Shown here: in pieces, positions 8,547 through 34,920 of the stretch
How the letters are laid out: each line of letters opens with the position of its first letter
How positions within the stretch are numbered: position 1 is the stretch's first letter
IMG/VR virus record: IMGVR_UViG_2561511241_000003
Direction: 5' to 3' (one strand)
Source: a virus
Lineage: Duplodnaviria > Heunggongvirae > Uroviricota > Caudoviricetes
Length of the DNA: 37,150 nt
Notes under the pieces: generated by a model
What the model was told of the DNA's origin: nothing
What the model saw: the letters and a program-made list of their open reading frames with translations, nothing else
Database searches by the model: none
Position numbers and translations under genes: made by a program

Positions 8547-8579
8547 AAAAACCGCTAATGTTCAGATTAGCGGTTTTTT
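8547..8579. terminator. bidirectional hairpin between convergent U and invertase genes
   Basis: AAAAACCGCTAAT-GTTCAG-ATTAGCGGTTTTTT: a perfect 13-bp stem with A-run and T-run flanks. The right arm overlaps the invertase stop codon. Confidence 0.5.
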
Positions 8580-9175
8580 GTTTCCTGAGTATTCTCAATT
8601 ATTCCTCCGGGTTGCGTGTCACCTACAGGGTGATAACGATAAATCGTCGATATACCGATGTCGTAAATTATGGCCAGCTGTTTTCTGTCGTGGCCGTTTT
8701 TAATCAGCCTCGCTATTTGCTCATGTTGCTCTTTTGTCAGTTTCGGGCGACGCCCACCAATTCGCCCCTGTGCGCGGGCTGCTGCCAGTCCGGCCAGTGT
8801 ACGCTCTACAATTAATTCACGTTCCATTTCAGCCAGGGCGCCCATCACGTGGAAGAAAAATCGTCCCATTGGGGTACTGGTATCAATTGAATCCGTCAGA
8901 CTACGAAAATTGACACCTTTTTTCCGCAATTCCTCAATCAGTGTGATCAGGTGTTTCATGCTTCTGCCCAGCCTGTCCAGTTTCCAGACAACGAGCGTAT
9001 CCCCCGCTGATAACGTTCTGAGCAGTTTTTTCAATCCCGGTCTGGCTGATTTTGTTCCGCTGATTTTATCTTCAAAAATCAGTTCACATCCTGCGCTATT
9101 GAGCGCATTGCGTTGCAAATCCGTGTTCTGGTCATTTGTTGATACGCGAATATAGCCAATTTGCATAAAAAGCAT
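8567..9175 (-). CDS. serine-recombinase DNA invertase (Hin/Gin/Cin/Pin family)
   Basis: N-terminal IGYIRVSTNDQ catalytic-serine motif, resolvase fold motifs (VVWKLDRLGRS) and C-terminal HTH (IGISTIYRY). Adjacent to the invertible tail-fibre segment. Confidence 0.92.
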   Translation of the reverse strand: MLFMQIGYIRVSTNDQNTDLQRNALNSAGCELIFEDKISGTKSARPGLKKLLRTLSAGDTLVVWKLDRLGRSMKHLITLIEELRKKGVNFRSLTDSIDTSTPMGRFFFHVMGALAEMERELIVERTLAGLAAARAQGRIGGRRPKLTKEQHEQIARLIKNGHDRKQLAIIYDIGISTIYRYHPVGDTQPGGIIENTQETKNR

Positions 9176-9194
9176 CCTGTTTCTGTTAGTAAAA

Positions 9195-21901: not shown

Positions 21902-23653
21902 ATGATTCAGGACGCTTTTGTGCGCCAGCGTGCGCGGCAACTTTACTGGCAGGGTTATCCGCCCGCAGAAATATCACGTCTGATGGGAATAAACCCGAAC
22001 ACGATTTATGCGTGGAAAAAACGCGACCAGTGGGATGAAACGCCACCTGTGCAGCGTGTCACGCAGTCCATCGATGCGCGCCTCATCCAGCTTACTGAAA
22101 AACAGAATAAAACAGGCGGTGACTTTAAGGAAATAGACCTGCTGACCCGGCAGCTTAAAAAGCTGCATGATGGCCAGCCGGATGTGATGGCCGCAGGAAA
22201 GAAAGGCCGGGCGAAAAAACTCAAAAATCATTTCACGCCGGAACAGATTGCCGCACTGCGGGAAAAAATCATCAGCAGGCTGGAGTGGCATCAGCGGGGC
22301 TGGTTTGACTCCCTGACCCTTTGCAGGGAAGCAGGGATACGTAACAGGATGATCCTGAAATCCCGACAGATTGGGGCGACCTGGTATTTTGCACAGGAAG
22401 CTCTGCTGATGGCGCTGCGTGACGATGTGGCGCAACCTTACCAGCGTAACCAGATTTTTTTGTCTGCGTCGCGTCGTCAGGCGTTCCAGTTTAAAAGCAT
22501 TATTCAGAAGGCCGCGGCTGAAGTTGATGTGGAGCTGAAAGGGGGCGATAAAATCATCCTCTCCAACGGCGCAGAGCTGCATTTTCTCGGCACTTCTGCT
22601 GCGTCGGCACAGTCCTATACGGGCAATTTTTATTTTGATGAATTCTTCTGGGTCTGTCGCTTTGCTGAACTGCGCAAGGTGGCTGGCGCTATGGCAACCC
22701 TCAGCGGACTGCGGCGCACCTACTTCTCCACGCCATCCACCGAAACGCACGAGGCATACGCCTACTGGAACGGCGACCGCTGGAACGAGAAAAAGGCCAC
22801 GCATAAACGCCAGCGTTTTTCTGTGGACTGGAAAACGCTGCATAACGGGCTTATCTGCCCTGACCGGACGTGGCGGCAAATTGTCACGCTGGAAGATGTG
22901 GTTAATCACGGCTGGAAACACACCGATATTGATGAAATTCGTGATGAAAACACCGAAGACGAGTTCCTCAATCTTTATATGTGTGAGTTTGTCCGCGAAG
23001 GGGAATCGGCATTTAACCTGAATATCCTGATTGGCTGTGGTGTTGACGGATACGACGACTGGAAAGACTGGAAACCTTTTGCTCCCCGCCCGATGGGGAA
23101 TCGTCCGGTATGGATTGGGTATGACGCAAACGGCAGCAGTGGCAACGGCGACAGCGGCGCTGTGTCCGTGGTGGTTCCTCCGGCTGTTCCTGGTGGCCGT
23201 TTTCGAACGGTGGAGACGCGACGCGTTCAGGGGCTGGAGATTGAAGAACAGGCCAGAGTCATTGAAGAGTTCACGTGTCGCTACAACGTGGAACACATCG
23301 GCATTGATGTGACAGGCGGGAACGGGGAGGCTGTTTATCAGATAGTGAAACGGTTTTTCCCTGCTGCTATTCCGTACACCTTCACGCTGTCATCAAAACG
23401 GTCGCTGGTACTGAAAATGCTGCAAATAATGCGCGCCGGGCGGTGGGAATACGATCGCGCCGAACGCGAGCTGGTCGCAGCCTTTAACGCCGTGCGTAAG
23501 GTGAAAACACCGGGCGGCTTTATCACTTACGAAACGGACCGCGCGAGGGGGATCAGCCACGGCGACCTTGCGTGGGCAACCATGCTTGCTGTCATTAACG
23601 AACCGATTGGCGGCGAAGGAGAAAACGAGCGTTTCACGGTTATGGAGTTCTGA
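21902..23653 (+). CDS. P: terminase ATPase (large) subunit P
   Basis: 583 aa, size and position of P2 gpP. Confidence 0.9.
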   Translation: MIQDAFVRQRARQLYWQGYPPAEISRLMGINPNTIYAWKKRDQWDETPPVQRVTQSIDARLIQLTEKQNKTGGDFKEIDLLTRQLKKLHDGQPDVMAAGKKGRAKKLKNHFTPEQIAALREKIISRLEWHQRGWFDSLTLCREAGIRNRMILKSRQIGATWYFAQEALLMALRDDVAQPYQRNQIFLSASRRQAFQFKSIIQKAAAEVDVELKGGDKIILSNGAELHFLGTSAASAQSYTGNFYFDEFFWVCRFAELRKVAGAMATLSGLRRTYFSTPSTETHEAYAYWNGDRWNEKKATHKRQRFSVDWKTLHNGLICPDRTWRQIVTLEDVVNHGWKHTDIDEIRDENTEDEFLNLYMCEFVREGESAFNLNILIGCGVDGYDDWKDWKPFAPRPMGNRPVWIGYDANGSSGNGDSGAVSVVVPPAVPGGRFRTVETRRVQGLEIEEQARVIEEFTCRYNVEHIGIDVTGGNGEAVYQIVKRFFPAAIPYTFTLSSKRSLVLKMLQIMRAGRWEYDRAERELVAAFNAVRKVKTPGGFITYETDRARGISHGDLAWATMLAVINEPIGGEGENERFTVMEF

Positions 23654-24699
23654 TGAGCAGAAAAAATAAAAAAGTGCGCATGAGTTCACGCATTGATCTC
23701 GCTGATGCGCTCAGGAAAGAATCGTCGCTCAGTGCATTCACATTTGATGGGCCTTATCGCCTGATCGGGCATGACCTGCTGGATAATATGTACTGTGCTG
23801 ATAACGGGCGGTGGTATGAAACCCCGGTGGACTGGTACGGCCTGGCAAGAGCTGCCCGGCAAACGTCCTGGCATCAGTCTGCGCTTTACTTTAAGCGCAA
23901 TGTATTACTCGGTTGCTACATCCCGCACCCGCTGCTTTCCCGGCAGGATTTCTCGGCGCTGGCGCTGGACTGGTTTGTGTTCGGTAACGCATTCCTTGAG
24001 CTTCGAAGCAATATGCTCGGCGAACCGCTTAAATTACGGCACGCCCTGGCGAAATACATGCGACGCGGAAGCGATCTTGAATCATGGTGGTATGTGCAGG
24101 ATGGCAAGGACGCGTTCCAGTTTCGCCCTGGCAAAGTGTGCCACCTGATGAATCCGGATATTAACCAGGAAATCTACGGCATGCCGGAATATCTTGGCGC
24201 ATTACTCTCGGCCAGCCTTTCTCATTCGGCGGACATGTTCAGAAAACTGTACTACGACAACGGATCCCACGCCGGGTGCATCATCTACATCGGTGCAGCG
24301 CAGGTAAACCGCGAAAGCATGGACTCCCTGAAAGAAACGCTACAGGGGGCACGTGGTGGTGGTGCGTTTAAAAACGTGCTCATTCATGCGCCCAACGGGG
24401 GCAAAGAGGGGGTGCAAATTTTGCCGTTCCAGCAGATCACCGCAAAAGATGAGTTCATGAATGTTAAGGCGGCATCCCGTGATGATGTGCTGGCTGCGCA
24501 CCGCGTTCCGCCGCAACTGATGGGGGCGATGCCGGGCGAAAAAAGTGCGTTTGGTGATGTGGAGAAGGCCGCGCGGGTTTACGCAATTAACGAGCTGATG
24601 CCCGTCATGGAGGCCATGAAGCACATCAATGACTGGCTTGGCGAAGAGGTGATCCGCTTTAACCCTTACGCACTGTTAGACACCCAGCCCACATCCTGA
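23653..24699 (+). CDS. Q: portal protein Q
   Basis: 348 aa, translationally coupled to P (ATGA overlap). Size and position match P2 gpQ. Confidence 0.9.
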   Translation: MSRKNKKVRMSSRIDLADALRKESSLSAFTFDGPYRLIGHDLLDNMYCADNGRWYETPVDWYGLARAARQTSWHQSALYFKRNVLLGCYIPHPLLSRQDFSALALDWFVFGNAFLELRSNMLGEPLKLRHALAKYMRRGSDLESWWYVQDGKDAFQFRPGKVCHLMNPDINQEIYGMPEYLGALLSASLSHSADMFRKLYYDNGSHAGCIIYIGAAQVNRESMDSLKETLQGARGGGAFKNVLIHAPNGGKEGVQILPFQQITAKDEFMNVKAASRDDVLAAHRVPPQLMGAMPGEKSAFGDVEKAARVYAINELMPVMEAMKHINDWLGEEVIRFNPYALLDTQPTS

Positions 24700-24725
24700 C
24701 GCGCTTCGCTTGTCTGCTGCTTCGC

Positions 24726-24748
24726 CGGGGCATAAAAAATTTATGCCC
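24726..24748. other. perfect hairpin GGGGCATAAA-AAA-TTTATGCCCC downstream of Q
   Basis: 10-bp stem with no clear U-tract. Could be a terminator or part of the packaging region. Confidence 0.3.
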
Positions 24749-24919
24749 CGACTCTCCAGCTCCTGTATCAATCAGATAATTTCACGACGCCTTCCAGCTT
24801 ATTGCCATCATCGACGGTCAGGCTCTTACGCAATCCCATCGCGCTGACTGCATGTTCTCGCCGCCTCAGTGCGATTTTGACGGCCTTATCTGTCACCCCA
24901 TCAAATCAAAAGCCCTCAC

Positions 24920-25155
24920 GTCTTTTTCACGCTCAGCGTGAGAAATACAGCCATTCTGTTGTGTCGCTGCGACATCGTTCAGGGGATGCTATTTACCCCC
25001 TGAAACGCGGGCTGTTCCCCCGTCACCTGCGCGCAGAAAAAACGCGTTTTTTTGTGCATGCACGGATCCTTGACGGATCCAGCCGCCACGCGGGCCGGAA
25101 GGGTAAAAAGTTGTTCAAAAAAATTGTGCAAATTTGTGCGCTTTTGTGCAAAGAA
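24920..25155. other. candidate cos/packaging region
   Basis: Non-coding stretch just past Q, dense in palindromes and phased repeats. Includes a G-rich stretch near 25008-25030 (bottom strand GGTGACGGGGGAACAGCCC) that loosely resembles the P2 cohesive end as I recall it. Confidence 0.3.
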
Positions 25156-25179
25156 ATGCCCCTCAAATTGAGGGGCATT
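25156..25179 (-). terminator. rho-independent terminator of the ATPase-subtilase operon
   Basis: ATGCCCCTCA-AATT-TGAGGGGCAT hairpin followed on the minus strand by TTCTTTG, 14 bp downstream of the subtilase stop. Confidence 0.5.
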
Positions 25180-25192
25180 ATGTCTTGAAGGA

Positions 25193-27418
25193 TTACGAAC
25201 GAATAGGAATTGATGTTTGCGGTTGAATTGGCACGAGCACCTGATTATAAGTACGTAAAATTTCGTTATACAGGTCTTGGTGCTTTGATGCCTTAATGGT
25301 AATTATAAGAGCATACTTGATTTTTTCTGCCTTATGGCTGGCTATGCTTGCACCGGCCTCACGAGCGTTATAATGAATGTCAAATACAGGATTTTTTAGA
25401 GTTGAACCTAGCATGTTCTTCGAATTATGTAAGACGGTCTCCCATTTGCCCATGTCAGAACGTCGCTCACTTTCAGTTGAATATTTGGCCAGTTCAAAGA
25501 ATCCCTTGGTTTCAGCATTTTGTTTTCCGTCTTTGATTTTTGAATCATTTGGCCGGAATGTCACTTCCAAACCAGCTTTTGTATAGGAAGCTGGGTCTTG
25601 TGGATCAGTGGTTGTTGCATAACAGAAAGTTGCCGCTAAGTTTATTCTACCTTTCAAGCCACCTTCAGGTATTGGAAGAGGAGCGCGTAAGTATTTTCCT
25701 GGTTTCAATTCACCTTGGTAGACGATACGGGCAACACCATCAGGGCTGACTATAATGTCGTTCAAGTCTTCAGGAAGTTTTCCCCAGCCAACTTCTGTAC
25801 AAGGATGATCAAGCTGTTTTGACGCATGAATTAACAAAGCTTTGATTGCTAGTAGGCTCAAATCGTTCCCTAAAATTGCCCGAACACCAACAGCTGCTCG
25901 TAAGGCGTAAGGAGAGGCAAAGCTTGTTCCTAGCTGGGGTATGATTACAGGCTTCTTACCTTTACCTAAAACATGAAAGTACTCGTCTGTGTCACCACCA
26001 AACGCAACTAAATCCGGTTTCATCACGCCAGGACTTCTGCCTGGCCCAATGGCGCTATATGGTGCTCGTTTCCATTCCGTATCATTAACTGTATCACAAG
26101 CACCAACAGCAAGAGCATTAACGCAATCGGCTGGTACTTGAATTCTTGCATTACCAGACTTGCGATCCATTTCTCCATTGTTGCCAACAGCAACAGTCAT
26201 TAATGTTTCACCATCACTTAACAAATCATCAATAACGGAAGTCCATGCATGAACTTCCGTATCTTCAATTGGTAGGTCTGGACCTAAACTTAGATTGATA
26301 AACTGATACTGGCGAGACAACAATACCTCTTCAATAAAGCCCAAAGTTCGATATAGTTCCAGCGGATCTTCTTGGCAGGTCTTGTTGTCCAAAACTCTTA
26401 AGTTATCAATATAAGAGTATGGTCTTTTCGCTTCCGATTTATTACTTATTGGTCCAAATAAAAAGGCTGAAGACACAGCTAAACCATGCTCTAAACCGTC
26501 TGGATCATCCTCTGCATGATCGTCCAAAACTCTATAGGATTTTAACCATGGCGATATAGCGTGCTCTGATGGTAAACCACCATCAAGAATCGCAACTTTT
26601 ATTTCTGAAGATACGGGGCCCTCAGCAGGCAATTTACACTGAGCTAAAGGACCGTAGTTCCTTTGTATTGGTCTAATCCCACGCAATCTTGGAACCGGTC
26701 TTATTACTCGTACAAATGTAAATTTCGCAAGCTTACTAATAGTAATTCTATCGGCCTGGATTGGCACGAACCATAATGTACCAGCGGTAAAAGCTAATGA
26801 AGTATGTACTTTGATGTTCAAATTTGATGCAAACTGAACAAATTGTTGCTGAACCAAGTCTTGTTCATTATCTGGCAGTAAATGAACACCAACCTCAAAA
26901 TACGAAGAATCCTGCTCACCAATGGTAATAATACGCTCTTCGGGTAAATAGGCATCGAACCGTTCTATGCGTGCAAAATCAATCGCTTCGTCAGAAAACT
27001 CTTTGAGTCCTGACACCCAATGAGGTAACTCTTTGAAGGATTCTCTTTTACCAGCAACAAACATTTGTGTCGTAGTTACTTCTGACACAGTAACTTTTCG
27101 CTTCCAGCTTTGAGGCGTAATTTTTACCGTCCTGCTGCCAATAGACGTTAACCCGGTAGACTTAAGCATTTTTGCAGGAAAAAAAGAGCGTGCAATATAG
27201 CTCGGATTCAACGTCAACTTAGCCACAGCATAATCATAAGGACATGCCTGACTGGGTAAATCATCAAAATTTTCTATAGTAGATGCAATTTGCGGCAATA
27301 AACGTTGTTTCGATTCGTAAAGAGAATAAACCTCAGCTTTTCCGGGCACTCTTTTAGGACCAGGAATATCGCTGGTTAATAATTCGCCGCGTCCAATCAG
27401 AAAATTAGTTTTCGCCAT
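25193..27418 (-). CDS. cytoplasmic S8 subtilase-like serine protease with unassigned N- and C-terminal regions (741 aa)
   Basis: Catalytic motifs in canonical order: Asp279 (KVAILDGG), His311 (EHGLAVSS), Asn413/414 (VGNNGE), Ser499 (GTSFASP). No signal peptide or propeptide. Residues 1-270 and 540-741 carry no motif I recognise. AT-rich codon usage. Confidence 0.85.
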   Translation of the reverse strand: MAKTNFLIGRGELLTSDIPGPKRVPGKAEVYSLYESKQRLLPQIASTIENFDDLPSQACPYDYAVAKLTLNPSYIARSFFPAKMLKSTGLTSIGSRTVKITPQSWKRKVTVSEVTTTQMFVAGKRESFKELPHWVSGLKEFSDEAIDFARIERFDAYLPEERIITIGEQDSSYFEVGVHLLPDNEQDLVQQQFVQFASNLNIKVHTSLAFTAGTLWFVPIQADRITISKLAKFTFVRVIRPVPRLRGIRPIQRNYGPLAQCKLPAEGPVSSEIKVAILDGGLPSEHAISPWLKSYRVLDDHAEDDPDGLEHGLAVSSAFLFGPISNKSEAKRPYSYIDNLRVLDNKTCQEDPLELYRTLGFIEEVLLSRQYQFINLSLGPDLPIEDTEVHAWTSVIDDLLSDGETLMTVAVGNNGEMDRKSGNARIQVPADCVNALAVGACDTVNDTEWKRAPYSAIGPGRSPGVMKPDLVAFGGDTDEYFHVLGKGKKPVIIPQLGTSFASPYALRAAVGVRAILGNDLSLLAIKALLIHASKQLDHPCTEVGWGKLPEDLNDIIVSPDGVARIVYQGELKPGKYLRAPLPIPEGGLKGRINLAATFCYATTTDPQDPASYTKAGLEVTFRPNDSKIKDGKQNAETKGFFELAKYSTESERRSDMGKWETVLHNSKNMLGSTLKNPVFDIHYNAREAGASIASHKAEKIKYALIITIKASKHQDLYNEILRTYNQVLVPIQPQTSIPIRS

Positions 27419-27441
27419 ACATACTCCTTATCTATGCTGTA

Positions 27442-28563
27442 TTACATTTTTTGACTGTATTTTCTAATTGTATCCCTACTGACTCCGGTTAAGTCTGATA
27501 TGGCATGCTGGGATAATTTAGAATTTCTTTTTAGAGTAACTGCAATTTCTTTACGTTCATTCCTGTCTAATTCTGATAAACCATCTTTAATGAACGACCC
27601 AATCAACTCTTCATCTGAGGAAATACCTAAAGCGACCGAACGTCGGAATTTGTTGATAGAACGCTCAATATTACTAAAAGATTCATTTTTGAACATAATA
27701 GCCAGTAGATCTATCCAACGTGCAAAAATCGCGTAGTCGGGACCTGAAAAGCGTTTAATTGCTTCTTTAATACTTTCGCTATCTGGCTTCTCAAAATTGA
27801 GCACTAAATCAAAACGTCTCCATAGTGCTGGATCAATCAACTCAGCGAAGTTAGTTGCAGCAAGTAGCAAACTAGAAGACGGCCATTCGTCAACCTCCTG
27901 GAGTATTACGGTAACAAGTCTTTTTAATTCTCCAACATCAGAATCATCACTTCTCTTTTTGGCGATTGAATCAATTTCATCTAACAGAAGAACGCACGGC
28001 CCTTTCTTCGCAAAATCTAGAGCTGCCCGAAGGTTATTTCCGCTTTTGCCCAGATAGCTGCTCATTACTGCCGTTAAATCAAGAACGTAAAAAGGAACCC
28101 CTAATTTCTGAGCTAACCAGCTTGCCGTAAGTGTTTTACCTACACCCGGAGGGCCAACAAAAATGGCAGAGCGTGTTGGTTGTAAGCCGAGAGTCTTGAG
28201 GCGATCGATGTGCTTCCGCTCAAGAATAATTTGATCCAGTGAGTCTTCTATCTGACTGGACAGTAGAGGTTTGCTCACAATCTTTTCATTTGGTGCTTTA
28301 AGCAAGGTAAGCCTTGACTCCTCGTCCACAGGCATGGTTTGAGGCAGCGCTTGTTTTGGTGCGGTAACCTTACGCAGGCTTTGTGCAGGCTTTTGCGGTT
28401 TATTTCGTAGATAAAGATCAAGCTGCTCGGATAGAGCAGGCATAGTTTCCCGATATTTACGCACCAAGCGAGCGACATATAACCGAACGTCATCATACTG
28501 TTCAGTTATTACCAGTCTAACTAGTTGGGCTAAATCTGACTGAATACCACCTAAGTCGCCCAT
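27442..28563 (-). CDS. AAA+ ATPase with C-terminal helix-turn-helix (373 aa)
   Basis: Walker A GPPGVGKT (137-144), Walker B LLLDEID (192-198), sensor-1 Asn in AATNFA, RRFD arginine finger, C-terminal HTH ~340-370 (LSQHAISDLTGVSRDTIRKY). SD AAGAGG upstream. 23 bp upstream of the subtilase gene. Confidence 0.85.
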   Translation of the reverse strand: MGDLGGIQSDLAQLVRLVITEQYDDVRLYVARLVRKYRETMPALSEQLDLYLRNKPQKPAQSLRKVTAPKQALPQTMPVDEESRLTLLKAPNEKIVSKPLLSSQIEDSLDQIILERKHIDRLKTLGLQPTRSAIFVGPPGVGKTLTASWLAQKLGVPFYVLDLTAVMSSYLGKSGNNLRAALDFAKKGPCVLLLDEIDSIAKKRSDDSDVGELKRLVTVILQEVDEWPSSSLLLAATNFAELIDPALWRRFDLVLNFEKPDSESIKEAIKRFSGPDYAIFARWIDLLAIMFKNESFSNIERSINKFRRSVALGISSDEELIGSFIKDGLSELDRNERKEIAVTLKRNSKLSQHAISDLTGVSRDTIRKYSQKM

Positions 28564-28599
28564 CTTAACTGTAACCTCTTGATTTTAAGTGAATTGAAA

Positions 28600-28645
28600 A
28601 AACATTTAACTGGACTATTTATAGTATTGCACTTTTTTATCAAAC
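28600..28645 (-). promoter_or_regulatory. candidate sigma70 promoter of the ATPase-subtilase operon
   Basis: On the minus strand, TTGATA then ~15 bp then ATAAAT/TATAAA lies inside the AT-rich 180-bp leader. Coordinates are approximate. Confidence 0.3.
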
Positions 28646-28743
28646 AGGGAAGAGGAATACTATATGAAATTACAGTGTGCCTCATGGAACGTCCTTACCA
28701 TGTCTAAACTCTACCTTCATACAATTGATGATTTCTTTCTTGG

Positions 28744-31509
28744 TTATTTTTTCTTCTCGCTATTGCCTTTGCCCTGCAACAGACCCGCCTTGTGACGTGC
28801 GCGTTCAGTGGTTTCATTGATTCTCTGTGCGTGCTCTGCGTCACGGATGGCGCGCAGCATGTCAGAAAGCACGGTAACGGGAGTTTTCATGGTGTTCTGG
28901 TCCTGCTGAATTGTGGATGCCAGGCGTGCGGCGGCTTCTGGGTCTGATGCCCCGAGCTGTTTCAGATAGCTGGAAACCGGGTTATGGCGGATTTCCGTGC
29001 TGTTTACGCTGTGATTACGACTCAGGCGCTGCCAGAGTTGCGTGATTCGGCTGTCCGGTCGGGTATCCGGTTTACATACAATTTCATATCCCTGCGGCGC
29101 AATGATGCTGCCGTCAACGTACAGACTGCCGCCCCGTAACAGGTGCAGCATCTGTTGTTCACCGATATGCAGGCCGAGAGATTCGGCAGACTCCCGCCAT
29201 TCTTTAGCGAGTAACTCGTGGTTATCAGGCAAAGGCCGCGGCTGTTTGCGGCTCTGTGTCCAGTTCTGCATTTCATCACTGTTGTTTTTTGCCTGTTTGT
29301 CACGCAGCGAACGCATCAGCGCCCGGCGTTCGTGCCGTTTCAGTGAGCGCATCCATTCATCCACATCAACGCCGTCAGGAAGCTGCGGCCACGGTGCTGG
29401 CCGTTCTTCCGACTGTTCTGTCCCGCTGTTGCCTGTTTCCTGTACACGGGGACAGTTATTGCCACGAGTCCAAGGGGCGGCAGGGCCGCCCTGAAGGTCA
29501 AAACCATTTTCGTGGGCGTTGTCTTCTGGTTCTGGTTTACGTCTTACCAATTTCCAGTTATCCGGATGCGTGCACACACGGGAGGATTCCCCGATGAGTG
29601 GTGACCAGATCCCGTAAATCTGTACGCTCTGTTCGCCGTAATCGTTCAGCTCATCTGCGAGGTCGTAGGCGGTGCGAATCAGGTAGTCCTTGCGTGGAAC
29701 AAGCACGCCACCCTGTTTTTCAATGTAGGTGGCAAAACACCCGGCATCGGCGGCAGCGAGTACCGCATCCATTGCATCATCTTTCAGCCGTTGCGGGCCT
29801 TCCGGATTGCGTGCCATCTGGCTGGCAAGGCGGCGCAGTTCACGCCACACCTGACGGGAGGGGATGCCAAAGAACTGGAACTGACGGACCCGGTGAAGGC
29901 GCGCCCAGCCGATGGCGCGCTCCACGCTCTCGGCCATTGATTTTCCGGTTTCGTGGTCAACGCGTGGCTTGCCCGTTTTCGGGTCGATGCCATCCACGGC
30001 GCGGCTGTCCAGGTTCTTTCCGATGTAGGTGGCGATGTAGCTGGTTGGTGTGCCTTTTGAGCCGTCGACATACTCCGCCTTAAAACGCGGAGTTATGTCA
30101 TCGCCCAGCTCGTGGCGGTCCTCCTGAATGGCAATATCGCAGACGTGGGACACGATGGTTTCAATCTCGTCCGGATGTGCAAAGACCATCATATGCCAGT
30201 GCACAGTGCCGTCATGGTGAGGCTCCACCGTGCGGATGCCATACCAGCGCAGGCCGTCGCGGTTCAGTTTTTTGCGGACCGCCGCAAAAAACGTGTTAAC
30301 CAGGTAATCGCTGGAGTCGCGCATGGTGGCCCCGTTCCATTTGGGGTTCGGATGACCGTTCTCCGTTGTTGCGTGGTATTTTGACGGGCAGGTGACGGTC
30401 AGAAACACCGCTCTGTCGCCACGGGCTTCGGCCAGAAGTTCCAGTCCCTTCATGGTGGCCATCATTTCTGCCTTACGGTGAACCGGGTTACTTACTCCCG
30501 CGTAATACACCGTCTCGAGATCAATCGTGAACCCGTCTTCATTTTCCAGCATGAAACTTTTCAGGAAATCGCGTGTTTTCTCGCGCTGTGCGCGAAACTC
30601 GCTTAACGCGTCCTGGCTCAGATAGGGCGATGTTTTTCTGGAAACCAGACAGGCGGCGCGGAGTTGTTCTTCCCGCCACTCGCAACGTAACAGCCACAGT
30701 TTGCGTTTCCACCATTCCGCACAGGTCAGGCGAAGGATTGCGCCCGGCAGCAGCTCCGTGTCTGGTTCGTTCCTCCGGTCTTTGTCTGTTGTCAGTGCGT
30801 CATAATGTGGAGGCATGGCGTGCAGGTGTAACGCCATGCGGGCCAGCATCTGATACGCCTTCAGCGTTACATCCATGGTCAGCTCGCCATCGGTCGCGCC
30901 AAAGCCATCGCAGAGTTTTTCGAAGGTGCTGCTGAACATCGCCGCCGTCATGGTGGCCAGCGTCTGTATCTGGTGTTTGTTGAGCTGCGGCAGGTAAAGC
31001 AAATCGTCCAGGCGTTCGCGTCCGGCAAGGGAGCGATAACCCGGTGTCAGCCAGCGGTGATCGGTGCGGTCCAGACGTTCGAATATTTTGCGCAGGGTTC
31101 CGCGTGCATAGCGTTCCGCCTGCCAGCTCTTTTTGCCTTTCCGGCGATCGGCTTCCTGTTTTTTGCGCAGGAAGGAGAGGTGGCGAATAAGCGGATCGCG
31201 CAGATAGGACGGCAGCAGGCGCAGCGAGGCCATGGCTTCATCCACTGCGCCGCGTGCCTGTTTTCTGGCGTCTCCTGCCAGTGTGATGGTTTTGTCCTGT
31301 TTTTCCTGTGCGTCCAGGCTTTTATTAATCAGGTTGCCCAGCGGCGTGGCGGAGAACGCCGCATCAGCCATTTCCTTGCGGCGCTCGTTCTCTGCCCGGT
31401 AGGCATCCAGCCAGGAGGAAAGCGCGGATTCAGGAGCGGGGATCCCCGTTCCTTCACGCCCCACTGCGTGGCGCGGTTGTTGCCAGTCCCTGATGTGCTC
31501 TGCCGTCAT
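28744..31509 (-). CDS. A: replication initiation protein A (rolling-circle nickase)
   Basis: 921 aa with the histidine motif GTVHWHMMVF and the tyrosine-containing region of P2 gpA-type initiators. The C-terminal ~150 aa look like an extension relative to my memory of P2 A (~760 aa). Confidence 0.88.
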   Translation of the reverse strand: MTAEHIRDWQQPRHAVGREGTGIPAPESALSSWLDAYRAENERRKEMADAAFSATPLGNLINKSLDAQEKQDKTITLAGDARKQARGAVDEAMASLRLLPSYLRDPLIRHLSFLRKKQEADRRKGKKSWQAERYARGTLRKIFERLDRTDHRWLTPGYRSLAGRERLDDLLYLPQLNKHQIQTLATMTAAMFSSTFEKLCDGFGATDGELTMDVTLKAYQMLARMALHLHAMPPHYDALTTDKDRRNEPDTELLPGAILRLTCAEWWKRKLWLLRCEWREEQLRAACLVSRKTSPYLSQDALSEFRAQREKTRDFLKSFMLENEDGFTIDLETVYYAGVSNPVHRKAEMMATMKGLELLAEARGDRAVFLTVTCPSKYHATTENGHPNPKWNGATMRDSSDYLVNTFFAAVRKKLNRDGLRWYGIRTVEPHHDGTVHWHMMVFAHPDEIETIVSHVCDIAIQEDRHELGDDITPRFKAEYVDGSKGTPTSYIATYIGKNLDSRAVDGIDPKTGKPRVDHETGKSMAESVERAIGWARLHRVRQFQFFGIPSRQVWRELRRLASQMARNPEGPQRLKDDAMDAVLAAADAGCFATYIEKQGGVLVPRKDYLIRTAYDLADELNDYGEQSVQIYGIWSPLIGESSRVCTHPDNWKLVRRKPEPEDNAHENGFDLQGGPAAPWTRGNNCPRVQETGNSGTEQSEERPAPWPQLPDGVDVDEWMRSLKRHERRALMRSLRDKQAKNNSDEMQNWTQSRKQPRPLPDNHELLAKEWRESAESLGLHIGEQQMLHLLRGGSLYVDGSIIAPQGYEIVCKPDTRPDSRITQLWQRLSRNHSVNSTEIRHNPVSSYLKQLGASDPEAAARLASTIQQDQNTMKTPVTVLSDMLRAIRDAEHAQRINETTERARHKAGLLQGKGNSEKKK

Positions 31510-33272: not shown

Positions 33273-33689
33273 CTATGCGTTAAATACGGCACGTTGCGCG
33301 TCATCAATGAATACAGCTTGAGAGCGTTCTATCAGGCGGAGATTTGTCAGAAGCTCAGACTCTTTTGTGTGGTAAGGCGTTATCAGGTATTTGCCGTGCA
33401 GTTCGGCAATAATGGTGTATTGCGGCATCATTGCTGAACCAAGAATATAAATGCAGCGTCCAATGCTGGACGGATTCATGGCTGCAACTGTTGACTGTGT
33501 TTTAAGAGTGTCGATTTCTTTGCTCTGTTCCTCAATAATTTTGGCTGCGTCAGCGGTGATTTTTGCAATGGTCAGTGCGTGAAGTGCTGCCATATGTTGG
33601 CTACGCTTCACGGCATCTTTAGCCATTTCATCTTCCGCTTCTGATATTTTTTTTAATGTGTTGATAATGCCTTCTTCTTTTGTGTTCAT
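33273..33689 (-). CDS. hypothetical early protein (138 aa), coiled-coil N-terminus
   Basis: Early operon ORF. No motif recognised. Confidence 0.45.
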   Translation of the reverse strand: MNTKEEGIINTLKKISEAEDEMAKDAVKRSQHMAALHALTIAKITADAAKIIEEQSKEIDTLKTQSTVAAMNPSSIGRCIYILGSAMMPQYTIIAELHGKYLITPYHTKESELLTNLRLIERSQAVFIDDAQRAVFNA

Positions 33690-33781
33690 TTTATATCTCC
33701 GTTATTTACGTGTGCGAATACCTCCGCGAATGCGGATTGTTTTTACATTTTCTTATTTAACCTGTGGTTTTATTTGCTCTG

Positions 33782-33895
33782 TTATTCGCCAGTGAAAAAG
33801 CGTTCAATCTTTTTTACTGAATGAATAATTCGCATAATCCCAATGGCGCAGGCCACAGAAATAATCAGAACAAGCCATGAGATAAATATACTCAT
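33782..33895 (-). CDS. small hydrophobic peptide (37 aa)
   Basis: Hand translation: MSIFISWLVLIISVACAIGIMRIIHSVKKIERFFTGE, a single TM helix with basic tail. Its start overlaps the stop of the upstream 80-aa ORF. Below the ORF-track size cut-off. Confidence 0.3.
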   Translation of the reverse strand: MSIFISWLVLIISVACAIGIMRIIHSVKKIERFFTGE

Positions 33896-34134
33896 GCGAT
33901 ATTCCCCAGCTTATACGGTTCAATATGTTCCCCGCATTCTGCGGCACAGATTAGCTCGGAAAGTTCGTTAAGTGCATCCAGATCATCAGCGTAAAAAGCC
34001 ACGTCATACAGACTCCGGATTGCCCTGGTCAATGAGTCACGGGCTGCACGTTCAGCATGAGAGCCTGATGCACTTAAGCGAAAATAAAAACGCTCAAGTG
34101 CTTTGTTGATGAGTGTTTTATATTCTTTGCCCAT
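33892..34134 (-). CDS. hypothetical early protein (80 aa)
   Basis: Early operon ORF. No motif recognised. Confidence 0.45.
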   Translation of the reverse strand: MGKEYKTLINKALERFYFRLSASGSHAERAARDSLTRAIRSLYDVAFYADDLDALNELSELICAAECGEHIEPYKLGNIA

Positions 34135-34145
34135 TGCAACACCCT

Positions 34146-34484
34146 TTAATCTGCTTTCTGAATTTCAGCTTCTGAATCCATACAAATAATTTCGATATAG
34201 GGTTCATCGCCATTAACCTGACGTGCCTTTTCAGCTTCGCTAATGATTTCGCGTACGGTCTGGTACGGAAGTTCCACAAACAATCGCGTGCCGTTCAGAT
34301 AAAGGTAAGTGGCCACATCTTTTTCTGCCGGGACTACAGCATCAATAGCTGATGCGCGTAACAACAACTCACCGCGAAAATCAATAAAGCGGATAAATAC
34401 ACCTTGTGCATGGTCTTTAGTCATAAAGCACCTGTTATAAATCAGCTTGTTTAATAAAACTTTGCCCACGAAGCAGACGATCAA
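34146..34484 (-). CDS. hypothetical early protein (112 aa; start uncertain)
   Basis: Early operon ORF. No motif recognised. Confidence 0.45.
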   Translation of the reverse strand: MIVCFVGKVLLNKLIYNRCFMTKDHAQGVFIRFIDFRGELLLRASAIDAVVPAEKDVATYLYLNGTRLFVELPYQTVREIISEAEKARQVNGDEPYIEIICMDSEAEIQKAD

Positions 34485-34920
34485 CTGTGCGAAGTGCTTC
34501 GTATAATGTGAAATCCTGCCCGAACTGATTGTCGCCGCAGTTCAATGCAAAAATGCGGTTTCCGGTAAATGGATTGCGTGGGCATCTGTGAACTACGATT
34601 CCAGCTTTTTCAATCAGCCAAGTGTGTTCGCCAATTTGTTTTACTGTATGGCCATCTGGCGTTGCGTGCGTCTCGCTTAGGCTGTAGCGAGAGTTGCTAC
34701 GTGATGCACTGGTAGTGAAGCGGTTAGCGTGGCGTTCTGCGCCGTTGCGGAAGCGCTGTTGTGAAGAATTGCGCTGTTGCTTCATGTCAAAAACTCCGTA
34801 CCTGTTTACTTCCCCGGCATAACGCCCATTTTCAAAATAATTGCGGCGAAATCCCATGTTATTGGGTTCGCTGTTTCGCTGTTGCTTATTCATTTTTTGT
34901 GCCTCTACCCGATAAGCCAA
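34435..34920 (-). CDS. hypothetical early protein (161 aa), Q/N/R-rich N-terminus
   Basis: Early operon ORF. Start uncertain. Confidence 0.4.
   Translation of the reverse strand: MAYRVEAQKMNKQQRNSEPNNMGFRRNYFENGRYAGEVNRYGVFDMKQQRNSSQQRFRNGAERHANRFTTSASRSNSRYSLSETHATPDGHTVKQIGEHTWLIEKAGIVVHRCPRNPFTGNRIFALNCGDNQFGQDFTLYEALRTVDRLLRGQSFIKQADL

What the first reader, a model, noticed from the sequence alone, without database searches (positions are those of the whole stretch)
25193..28563. AAA+ ATPase plus cytoplasmic S8 subtilase operon in the cos-proximal P2 hotspot: candidate antiphage or abortive-infection system
Two co-oriented genes lie between the portal gene/cos region and replication gene A, with their own AT-rich leader and terminator hairpin. 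This is the position of old/tin in P2, a slot that hotspot surveys (Rousset et al. 2022, as I recall) report as carrying interchangeable antiviral cargo. Gene 1 is a 373-aa AAA+ ATPase with complete Walker A/B, sensor-1 and arginine-finger motifs and a C-terminal HTH. Gene 2 is a 741-aa protein with a complete S8 catalytic set (D279, H311, N413, S499) but no signal peptide or propeptide, so a cytoplasmic protease. The region is clearly lower in GC than the flanking phage genes. The pairing recalls the two-gene IetAS system of Gao et al. 2020, whose mechanism is uncharacterised; I cannot tell from sequence alone whether this is an IetAS orthologue or a distinct module.
Basis: partly seen in the sequence, partly recalled or inferred. 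Interest (0 to 1): 0.85.

Follow-up and report, generated by a model that had tools for sequence, protein, structure and literature searches.

The report
Known IetAS defence pair in prophage
The two genes are a real ATPase-plus-protease pair of the known IetAS anti-phage/toxin-antitoxin family, carried as swappable cargo in a P2-like prophage of E. coli UMNK88; published tables already list this locus as ietAS, so it is correct but not new.

Summary
Two co-oriented minus-strand genes, a 373-aa AAA+ ATPase (27442-28563) and a 741-aa cytoplasmic S8 subtilase (25193-27418), lie between portal gene Q/cos and replication gene A. All stated catalytic motifs are present and invariant in homologues. 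The cargo has 41% GC against 54-56% in the flanks and ends in a strong terminator hairpin.

Both proteins match PADLOC IetA and IetS models end to end (1e-77 and 7e-52). The window is 100% identical to E. coli UMNK88. Wu et al. Table S1 already lists these coordinates as PADLOC 'ietAS'. Rousset et al. 2022 Table S5A already lists this protein pair in the P2 gpA-gpQ hotspot. Only 44 of about 1,140 E. coli genomes with this prophage frame carry it.

It is a divergent clade. It falls far below NCBI's IteA/IteS equivalog cut-offs. It is only 34%/24% identical to the tested ECOR52-type system, and its protease is barely alignable to founding pTiC58 IetS. Clade features are a conserved C-terminal HTH on IetA and a prodomain-like N-terminal region on IetS.

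Most likely function is a protease toxin restrained by an ATP-dependent ATPase and released on infection (abortive infection). This is inferred by homology and untested for this clade. Interest is low to moderate.

The parts
23653..24699 (+). Portal gene Q, the left anchor of the hotspot
   Evidence: phrog_68 portal 6.6e-153; annotated as phage portal protein in UMNK88
24700..25157 (.). Conserved non-coding segment between Q and the cargo, presumed to hold cos; homology with relatives ends at 25150-25157
   Evidence: This stretch matches 1,142 of 5,426 E. coli genomes at 90-97% identity, while the cargo does not. The cos location is inferred from Rousset's description. The P2 cos 19-mer itself was not found.
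25158..28771 (-). Variable cargo segment (~3.6 kb, 41% GC) carrying the whole ietAS module
   Evidence: Boundaries come from blastn against three relatives with other cargo. GC is 0.411 against 0.54 and 0.56 in the flanks. The right junction lies inside the last ~9 codons of gpA.
25155..25179 (-). Intrinsic-terminator hairpin (AUGCCCCUCAA-UUU-GAGGGGCAU followed by a U-rich tail), 14 nt after the ietS stop codon
   Evidence: RNA fold -19.4 kcal/mol, z = -4.29, 0 of 200 shuffles as stable
25193..27418 (-). ietS: 741-aa cytoplasmic S8 subtilase (WP_001140702). Layout: N-terminal tandem ferredoxin-like (prodomain-like) region ~30-240, S8 core ~271-546, C-terminal beta-sandwich ~560-725
27424..27429 (-). 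AAGGAG ribosome-binding site for ietS in the 23-nt ietA-ietS spacer
   Evidence: Read directly from the sequence
27442..28563 (-). ietA: 373-aa classical-clade AAA+ ATPase (WP_000502620). Layout: N-terminal helical bundle, disordered linker, AAA core and lid, C-terminal HTH (~334-372)
   Evidence: PADLOC IetA PDLC02196 1e-77 over residues 9-372. Pfam AAA 2.6e-30. Motifs invariant. AF2 model pLDDT 74. Foldseek best matches are p97-D2, FIGL-1, FtsH and Rpt.
28564..28743 (-). AT-rich leader (32% GC) with an AAGAGG ribosome-binding site at 28575-28580 and a weak sigma-70-like site at 28643-28614
   Evidence: The promoter match is not above chance. The leader is conserved with the Serratia copy.
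28620..28664 (.). Inverted repeat (15-nt arms, 87% complementary, 15 nt apart) overlapping the putative -10 region; candidate operator for the IetA HTH
   Evidence: The core TATAGTATT/AATACTATA is conserved in the Serratia P2-like copy, and a TAGTCC core is invariant in four genera. 121 of 2,000 shuffles give a perfect inverted repeat of >=9 nt. The function is inferred only.
28744..31509 (-). Replication gene A (nickase), the right anchor of the hotspot
   Evidence: phrog_91 'nicking at origin of replication' 3.9e-266; annotated as replication endonuclease

Best explanation
This is a prophage-borne IetAS (DefenseFinder 'Gao_Iet') module: a two-gene toxin-antitoxin-type anti-phage system carried as accessory cargo in the gpA-gpQ (old/tin) hotspot of a P2-like prophage.

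Shown here:
- The pair is a full-length profile match to IetA and IetS.
- All ATPase and protease catalytic residues are intact and invariant.
- Both proteins are cytoplasmic.
- The two genes form one transcription unit that ends in a strong terminator.
- The module is conserved as a pair across Proteobacteria and moves between prophage and chromosomal contexts.

Taken from published work on other IetAS clades:
- The S8 protease is the toxin and effector.
- The AAA+ ATPase is the antitoxin and needs an intact ATPase site.
- Expression of a phage protein triggers toxicity, and defence is by abortive infection.

Inferred for this locus:
- In the lysogen, IetA uses ATP to keep IetS inactive. IetA is a classical-clade, probably hexameric, protein-remodelling ATPase. 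IetS may sit as a zymogen held by its prodomain-like N-terminal region.
- The conserved C-terminal HTH of IetA probably autoregulates the operon at the inverted repeat in the leader, as type II antitoxins do.
- A superinfecting phage product or replication intermediate disables or titrates IetA. IetS then cleaves essential host or phage proteins, and the cell dies or arrests before phage release.
- The same addiction logic would also stabilise the prophage.
For: Classification:
- PADLOC IetA 1e-77 and IetS 6.7e-52, both end to end.
- Published PADLOC call of 'ietAS' at NC_017641.1:1028717-1032087, the same coordinates as this locus.
- Catalytic residues are intact and invariant.
- IetA is 35% identical (E 1e-41) to founding pTiC58 IetA and shares its best PADLOC model.

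Conservation and context:
- The AAA-then-S8 pair is conserved in Stenotrophomonas, Nitrosomonas and the same gpA-portal slot of a Serratia P2-like prophage.
- The slot is a documented defence hotspot, and the cargo is present in only 44 of ~1,140 prophage relatives.

Literature on other clades:
- TA behaviour of the protease and ATPase in SGI1 SgiAT and pTiC58.
- An ietA mutant could not be constructed, and protease activity is required for defence.
- Abortive infection and the YosG trigger for B. cereus ietAS.

Structure:
- IetA falls in the classical AAA+ clade.
- The HTH is conserved and modelled.
- The leader inverted repeat is conserved.
Against: - No experiment exists for this clade. The tested E. 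coli system (ECOR52-type, NCBI IteA/IteS) is only 34%/24% identical, and its cloning primers do not match this window.
- The tested system gave only limited protection on its own.
- The pair scores far below NCBI's IteA/IteS equivalog cut-offs: 223 vs 510 bits and 137 vs 900 bits.
- IetS is not significantly similar to pTiC58 IetS by BLASTP.
- The ferredoxin-like fold is generic.
- The pore-loop Tyr170 is Leu in most homologues, which weakens a substrate-threading argument.
- The promoter is not statistically supported, and the inverted repeat arises in ~6% of shuffles.
Confidence: 0.8

Rival explanations
1. The pair is primarily an addiction (post-segregational killing) module. It stabilises the prophage or an episomal form, and any anti-phage effect is incidental.
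For: IetAS was discovered as the stability and incompatibility determinant of pTiC58, and SgiAT stabilises SGI1. In relatives, the same slot usually holds ParM/StbA plus Plasmid_stab_B maintenance genes. This prophage looks defective (IS3 insertion, frameshifted tail gene) yet keeps an intact pair.
Against: TA and defence roles are not exclusive. Other IetAS clades protect against phage. An integrated prophage has little need for segregational stabilisation. The hotspot is enriched for defence cargo.
Confidence: 0.12
2. It is a distinct AAA+/subtilase module that merely resembles IetAS. Its trigger, target or logic differs, for example an ATPase that activates rather than restrains a pro-protease, or a DNA-sensing ATPase acting through its HTH.
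For: The protease is only 22-24% identical to other E. coli IetS clades and not significantly similar to pTiC58 IetS. It is below the NCBI equivalog cut-offs. The C-terminal HTH is specific to this clade and absent from the 326-328-aa IetA of pTiC58 and E24377A. The N-terminal region of IetS is prodomain-like.
Against: Both proteins match profiles collinearly over their full length, and IetA shares its best model with pTiC58 IetA. The architecture is collinear with the tested IteS through the S8 and C-terminal domains. Gene order and sizes are the same.
Confidence: 0.06
3. It serves the phage or acts as a lysogenic-conversion factor, for example a secreted virulence protease or a processing protease for phage or host proteins, and has nothing to do with defence.
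For: The host is a porcine ETEC strain. P2 hotspots sometimes carry virulence cargo such as cytolethal distending toxin.
Against: There is no signal peptide or TM segment. The obligate pairing with an AAA+ ATPase is conserved in non-phage contexts. The pair is absent from >95% of related prophages, so it is not a core phage function.
Confidence: 0.02

Closest known systems
PADLOC 'ietAS' / DefenseFinder 'Gao_Iet' (Gao et al. 2020), as already called at this locus in E. coli UMNK88
   Same: The same locus: Wu et al. Table S1 gives NC_017641.1 1028717-1032087 as ietAS. Both proteins match the IetA and IetS HMMs over their full length.
   Different: Nothing differs at the level of classification. 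Function for this sub-clade is assigned by homology only.
'AAA/HTH_50 + Peptidase_S8' arrangement in the P2 gpA-gpQ hotspot (Rousset et al. 2022, Table S5A)
   Same: Identical protein accessions, WP_000502620 + WP_001140702, in the same hotspot.
   Different: Rousset catalogued it by Pfam domains and did not name it IetAS. Peptidase_S8 appears only in their catalogue tables, so I found no sign that it was among the eight P2-hotspot systems they cloned.
ECOR52-type IetAS, which is NCBI's IteA/IteS (384 + 754 aa) in Rac-like lambdoid prophages; tested by Wu et al.
   Same: Same gene order and similar sizes; prophage-borne. The AAA core is 34% identical (E 4e-35). The S8 and C-terminal domains are collinear at 24% identity (E 4e-16).
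   Different: It is a different clade, and the window pair is below the equivalog cut-offs. It sits in a different prophage type and slot. The N-terminal region of the protease is not alignable. The cloning primers do not match this window.
Founding IetA/IetS toxin-antitoxin pair of Agrobacterium pTiC58 (Yamamoto et al. 2009), and SgiAT of Salmonella genomic island 1
   Same: An AAA+ antitoxin upstream of a subtilase toxin. IetA is 35% identical (E 1e-41) and shares the best PADLOC model.
   Different: pTiC58 IetA is 328 aa and lacks the C-terminal HTH. pTiC58 IetS is 836 aa, is not significantly similar by BLASTP, and has a different best PADLOC sub-model, PDLC02198. It is plasmid-borne rather than prophage-borne.
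ietHAS / E24377A-type (SNF2 helicase + AAA + S8, next to a type III RM-like methylase and helicase)
   Same: The ATPase core is 39% identical, and the protease is distantly related at 22%.
   Different: There is no helicase gene here; the upstream neighbour is phage gpA. That IetA is 326 aa without an HTH.
P2 old/tin exclusion genes
   Same: Same genomic slot, and the same lifestyle as lysogen-expressed cargo acting against other phages.
   Different: The proteins and chemistry are unrelated: Old is an OLD-family nuclease/ATPase and Tin targets T-even ssDNA-binding protein. This statement rests on established knowledge and was not tested here.

Membership tests
IetAS (PADLOC ietAS / Gao_Iet) | Two adjacent co-oriented genes, with the AAA+ ATPase immediately upstream of the S8 subtilase | tested here: met
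   ietA 27442-28563(-) and ietS 25193-27418(-), 23-nt spacer
IetAS (PADLOC ietAS / Gao_Iet) | ATPase matches an IetA profile over its full length | tested here: met
   PDLC02196 1e-77, residues 9-372 on profile positions 5-370 of 374
IetAS (PADLOC ietAS / Gao_Iet) | Protease matches an IetS profile over its full length | tested here: met
   PDLC02197 6.7e-52, residues 36-726 on profile positions 38-733 of 749
IetAS (PADLOC ietAS / Gao_Iet) | Intact ATPase site (Walker A/B, sensor-1, Arg fingers) and intact S8 catalytic residues (Asp-His-Ser plus oxyanion Asn) | tested here: met
   K143, D195/E196, N238, R249/R250; D279, H311, N413, S499. All are invariant in homologue alignments.
IetAS (PADLOC ietAS / Gao_Iet) | Direct pairwise homology to the founding pTiC58 pair | tested here: inconclusive
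   IetA: 35% identity, E 1e-41. IetS: BLASTP best E 0.01, related only through shared IetS profiles.
IetAS (PADLOC ietAS / Gao_Iet) | Protease toxic alone and neutralised by the ATPase (toxin-antitoxin behaviour) | not testable with these tools
   Reported for pTiC58, SgiAT and ietHAS only
IetAS (PADLOC ietAS / Gao_Iet) | Confers phage resistance when expressed | not testable with these tools
   Reported for other clades. I found no test of this clade.
NCBIfam IteA_antiphage / IteS_antiphage equivalogs (the clade tested by Wu et al. from ECOR52) | Score at or above the curated equivalog cut-offs (510 and 900 bits) | tested here: not met
   223.3 and 136.6 bits. PGAP accordingly names the proteins only 'AAA family ATPase' and 'S8 family peptidase'.
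P2-like gpA-gpQ (old/tin) defence hotspot cargo (Rousset et al. 2022) | Located between replication gene A and portal gene Q, next to cos | tested here: met
P2-like gpA-gpQ (old/tin) defence hotspot cargo (Rousset et al. 2022) | Content varies among otherwise closely related prophages | tested here: met
   The flank is found in 1,142 genomes and the cargo in 44. Relatives carry ParM/StbA, DUF4760 and small hypothetical genes instead. The composition break is 0.41 vs 0.54-0.56 GC.
ietHAS (helicase-containing IetAS variant, Liu-DS4) | SNF2-family helicase gene in the operon | tested here: not met
   The upstream gene is phage gpA and the downstream region is cos and Q. Contrast E24377A.
CBASS-associated TRIP13 / HORMA regulators | TRIP13-type AAA+ ATPase with HORMA and CD-NTase neighbours | tested here: not met
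   The TRIP13 model scores only 2e-15, against 1e-77 for IetA. No HORMA or cyclase ORFs are in the cargo.

The most novel reading that the evidence does not exclude
This HTH-bearing clade may differ mechanistically from the tested IetAS systems. IetS would be a cytoplasmic pro-subtilase whose tandem prodomain-like N-terminal region keeps it latent. IetA would be a DNA-bound, self-regulating AAA+ remodeller that controls zymogen activation, by holding or resetting the prodomain, and that reads a phage cue through DNA or through its N-terminal bundle. This would be an ATP-gated protease-zymogen switch in bacterial immunity, and it would give the first mechanistic model for the whole IetAS family.
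Probability: 0.15. Interest if true: 0.6.

Novelty: already known. Interest (0 to 1): 0.25.

Why it matters
The locus is a clean natural example of a P2-like prophage carrying a ready-made IetAS module into porcine ETEC, where ietAS is common (35 strains in one collection). That bears on phage-therapy host range.

Scientifically, the open question is the IetAS mechanism, which was still described as unknown in 2026. This clade has three features that give concrete handles for studying it:
- a conserved HTH on IetA;
- a conserved leader palindrome;
- a prodomain-like N-terminal region on IetS.

Any of several already catalogued IetAS loci would serve equally well, so this locus has no special claim.

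Tried and rejected
- Solved structures of IetA or IetS: none found. Only generic subtilisin (E ~1e-4) and p97/Cdc48 matches appeared.
- Recent mechanistic or structural IetAS papers: none in the library.
- Gao 2020 and Yamamoto 2009 full texts: not held. What was cloned by Gao is therefore inferred from NCBI's equivalog naming.
- Identity with the ECOR52 system tested by Wu et al.: rejected. The primers match neither the window nor E24377A, but they do match an IteA/IteS pair in a Rac-like prophage.
- tblastn of IetS against plasmids did not retrieve pTiC58. I fetched the pTiC58 locus by accession and compared it directly.
- Pfam scans of the N-terminal (1-271) and C-terminal (544-741) pieces of IetS at E <= 10: no hits.
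- The AF2 model of IetS is poor across the S8 core (pLDDT < 50), probably because the alignment is shallow (>=65% identity). Only the terminal domains were interpreted.
- P2 cos 19-mer search: no match within 3 mismatches. The position of cos is inferred from context.
- Aromatic pore-loop argument for substrate threading: dropped, because Y170 is Leu in most homologues.
- Sequenced phage isolates carrying this clade: none above 38% identity.
Full report
**1. Observation**

The two ORFs exist exactly as described, on the minus strand. A 373-aa protein is encoded at 27442-28563 and a 741-aa protein at 25193-27418. They are separated by 23 nt that contain an AAGGAG ribosome-binding site.

- The ATPase has Walker A GPPGVGKT (K143), Walker B (D195/E196), sensor-1 N238 and arginine fingers R249/R250.
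- The protease has D279, H311, N413 and S499 in canonical S8 contexts.
- All of these residues are invariant in alignments of 39 and 42 homologues.
- Pfam gives AAA 2.6e-30 and Peptidase_S8 2.5e-19.
- Neither protein has a signal peptide or TM segment.
- The cargo is 41% GC, against 54-56% in the flanks.
- A strong hairpin plus U-tract follows the ietS stop codon: -19.4 kcal/mol, z = -4.3.
- The 180-nt leader is 32% GC.

There are three caveats:

- The promoter-like site is weak, and the number of such sites in the region is no more than chance.
- The Pfam HTH hits are below their cut-offs. The HTH is nevertheless supported by near-invariant residues 350-368 and a three-helix C-terminal unit in the AlphaFold model.
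- 'No propeptide' is doubtful (see section 5).

**2. Where it comes from and what surrounds it**

The window is 100% identical to the E. coli UMNK88 chromosome, a porcine ETEC strain.

The element is a P2-like prophage of the P88/Xuanwuvirus type, integrated next to dmsA. It encodes terminase, portal, P2-family capsid, gpA nickase, Cox, repressor and integrase.

The pair lies between portal gene Q (23653-24699) and replication gene A (28744-31509). Rousset et al. 2022 describe exactly this cos-proximal gpA-gpQ locus as a hotspot, and it holds old and tin in P2.

**3. Is it variable cargo?**

Yes.

- The 450-bp Q-proximal non-coding segment is found in 1,142 of 5,426 complete E. coli genomes. 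The two genes are found in only 44, nearly all at >=99.6% identity.
- Relatives carry ParM/StbA plus Plasmid_stab_B, DUF4760 or small hypothetical genes in the slot.
- Homology with relatives stops at 25150-25157 and resumes at 28772, inside the last ~9 codons of gpA.

This rules out the possibility that the pair is a conserved core phage function.

**4. What it is**

Both proteins match PADLOC IetA and IetS models end to end: PDLC02196 at 1e-77 and PDLC02197 at 6.7e-52. The next-best ATPase family, TRIP13, scores only 2e-15.

The classification is already published for this very locus:

- Wu et al. (bioRxiv 10.1101/2022.08.21.504612) Table S1 lists NC_017641.1 1028717-1032087 as PADLOC 'ietAS'. 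These are the same coordinates as my BLAST hit.
- Rousset et al. Table S5A lists the same two protein accessions, WP_000502620 + WP_001140702, as 'AAA/HTH_50 + Peptidase_S8' in the P2 hotspot.
- A survey of porcine ETEC found ietAS in 35 strains, concentrated in a phylogroup A clade.

**5. Which IetAS?**

The family is heterogeneous, and this pair is a distinct sub-clade.

| Comparator | IetA vs window | IetS vs window |
|---|---|---|
| NCBI IteA/IteS equivalog models | 223 bits (cut-off 510) | 137 bits (cut-off 900) |
| ECOR52-type system tested by Wu et al. (384 + 754 aa, Rac-like lambdoid prophage) | 34% identity over the AAA core | 24% identity, collinear over residues 223-725 |
| Founding pTiC58 pair (328 + 836 aa) | 35% identity, E 1e-41, same best PADLOC model | not significant by BLASTP; different best IetS sub-model |
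| E24377A-type variant (SNF2 + AAA + S8 + methylase) | 39% identity | 22% identity |

- Because the pair is below the equivalog cut-offs, PGAP labels the proteins only 'AAA family ATPase' and 'S8 family peptidase'.
- I located the ECOR52-type system through its cloning primers, which do not match this window.

Features specific to the window's clade:

- **A conserved C-terminal HTH on IetA.** The profile covers it. pTiC58 IetA stops about 50 profile positions short.
- **A C-terminal beta-sandwich on IetS.** It resembles the C-terminal domains of the subtilases Tk-SP and KP-43 and collagenase PPC domains.

The clade is widespread and well conserved, at 65-77% identity across Enterobacterales, Burkholderiales, Xanthomonadales and Nitrosomonadales. 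The AAA-then-S8 pairing is kept in Stenotrophomonas and Nitrosomonas chromosomes, and in the same gpA-portal slot of a Serratia P2-like prophage.

**6. How it most likely works**

Published work on other clades shows the following:

- The protease is a toxin neutralised by the ATPase (pTiC58; SGI1 SgiAT tested in E. coli).
- An ietA mutant of ietHAS could not be constructed, and protease activity is needed for defence.
- B. cereus ietAS protects by abortive infection and is triggered by the SPbeta protein YosG. Escape mutations fall in replication functions.
- E. coli ECOR52 ietAS is weak alone but synergises with Zorya II against T3.
- The anti-phage mechanism was still called unknown in April 2026. 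No IetA or IetS structure is in the PDB by sequence, and I found no structural paper.

For this locus I infer the following:

- IetA keeps IetS latent at the cost of ATP. IetA is a classical-clade AAA+ ATPase, closest to p97-D2, FIGL-1, FtsH and Rpt. IetS may be held as a zymogen through its prodomain-like N-terminal region.
- The IetA HTH probably autoregulates the operon at a conserved inverted repeat in the leader, at 28620-28634 / 28650-28664. The repeat core is conserved in Serratia, and a TAGTCC core is invariant in four genera. About 6% of shuffled leaders give a perfect repeat of >=9 nt, so this is a lead and not a finding.
- Infection by another phage disables IetA, and IetS then degrades essential proteins.
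- The same logic would addict the cell to the prophage.

I dropped an 'aromatic pore loop' argument because Y170 is Leu in most homologues.

**7. Rivals**

- **A pure addiction module (confidence 0.12).** This fits the family's history and the maintenance genes found in this slot in relatives. It is not exclusive of a defence role.
- **A functionally distinct look-alike (0.06).** This is supported by the deep divergence of the protease and the clade-specific HTH. It is weakened by collinear full-length profile matches.
- **A secreted virulence or phage-processing protease (0.02).** This is contradicted by the absence of a signal peptide, the obligate ATPase partner in non-phage contexts, and absence from >95% of related prophages.

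**8. Novelty and verdict**

The exact locus is published as ietAS, and the exact protein pair is in the P2 hotspot catalogue.

What remains open is experimental. This sub-clade has, as far as I could find, never been tested, and the IetAS mechanism is unknown. The clade-specific HTH, the leader palindrome and the prodomain-like region are modest new leads.

Interest is 0.25.

Noticed in passing
window 14740-15954 (fragments ~14524-14697 and ~16011-16475): An IS3-family transposase splits a virion-morphogenesis gene, so the prophage is probably defective even though it keeps an intact ietAS.
   Followed up: no
window 10600-12101: The tail protein gene is annotated as frameshifted in UMNK88. This is another sign of prophage decay.
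   Followed up: no
window 8567-10600: A recombinase/invertase gene (8567-9166, -) sits next to a gp53-like tail-fibre tip and tail-fibre-assembly genes on both strands, in a low-GC patch (0.41-0.43). It looks like a Cin/Gin-type invertible host-range switch.
   Followed up: no
window 28744-28771 and loci L001-L003: Relatives usually carry ParM/StbA plus Plasmid_stab_B directly after gpA. Here those genes are absent, and the cargo junction lies inside the last ~9 codons of gpA, giving gpA a different C-terminal tail.
   Followed up: partly
window 28564-28743; L012 4720-4854; L010 and L014 leaders: The ietA leader is strongly conserved between the E. coli and Serratia copies, and a 'TAGTCC' core about 45 nt upstream of the start codon is invariant in Stenotrophomonas and Nitrosomonas as well. 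It contains an inverted repeat that could be an operator for the IetA HTH.
   Followed up: partly
window 33500-34500: A second low-GC patch (0.40-0.44) lies among small early-region genes (DUF4754, DUF4761, hypotheticals). It may be further accessory cargo.
   Followed up: no
NZ_CM143910.1 (E. coli E06), hit H36: The same ietS allele is interrupted by an IS5-like ISKpn26 element in one genome. Another genome (7-27 20A, hit H74) keeps only 43% of the locus. Both are examples of natural inactivation.
   Followed up: no
L008 (E. coli E24377A 3330029-3340792): A different ietAS clade sits between an SNF2 helicase and a methyltransferase plus DEAD-box helicase. This matches the published ietHAS variant and the reported ietAS/RM III co-localisation.
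   Followed up: partly
window 25193-28563 (annotation issue): NCBI's IteA/IteS equivalog models (whose names transpose 'Iet') miss this clade because their cut-offs are set around the ECOR52-type clade. RefSeq therefore labels a PADLOC-recognised defence system only as a generic ATPase and peptidase.
   Followed up: yes
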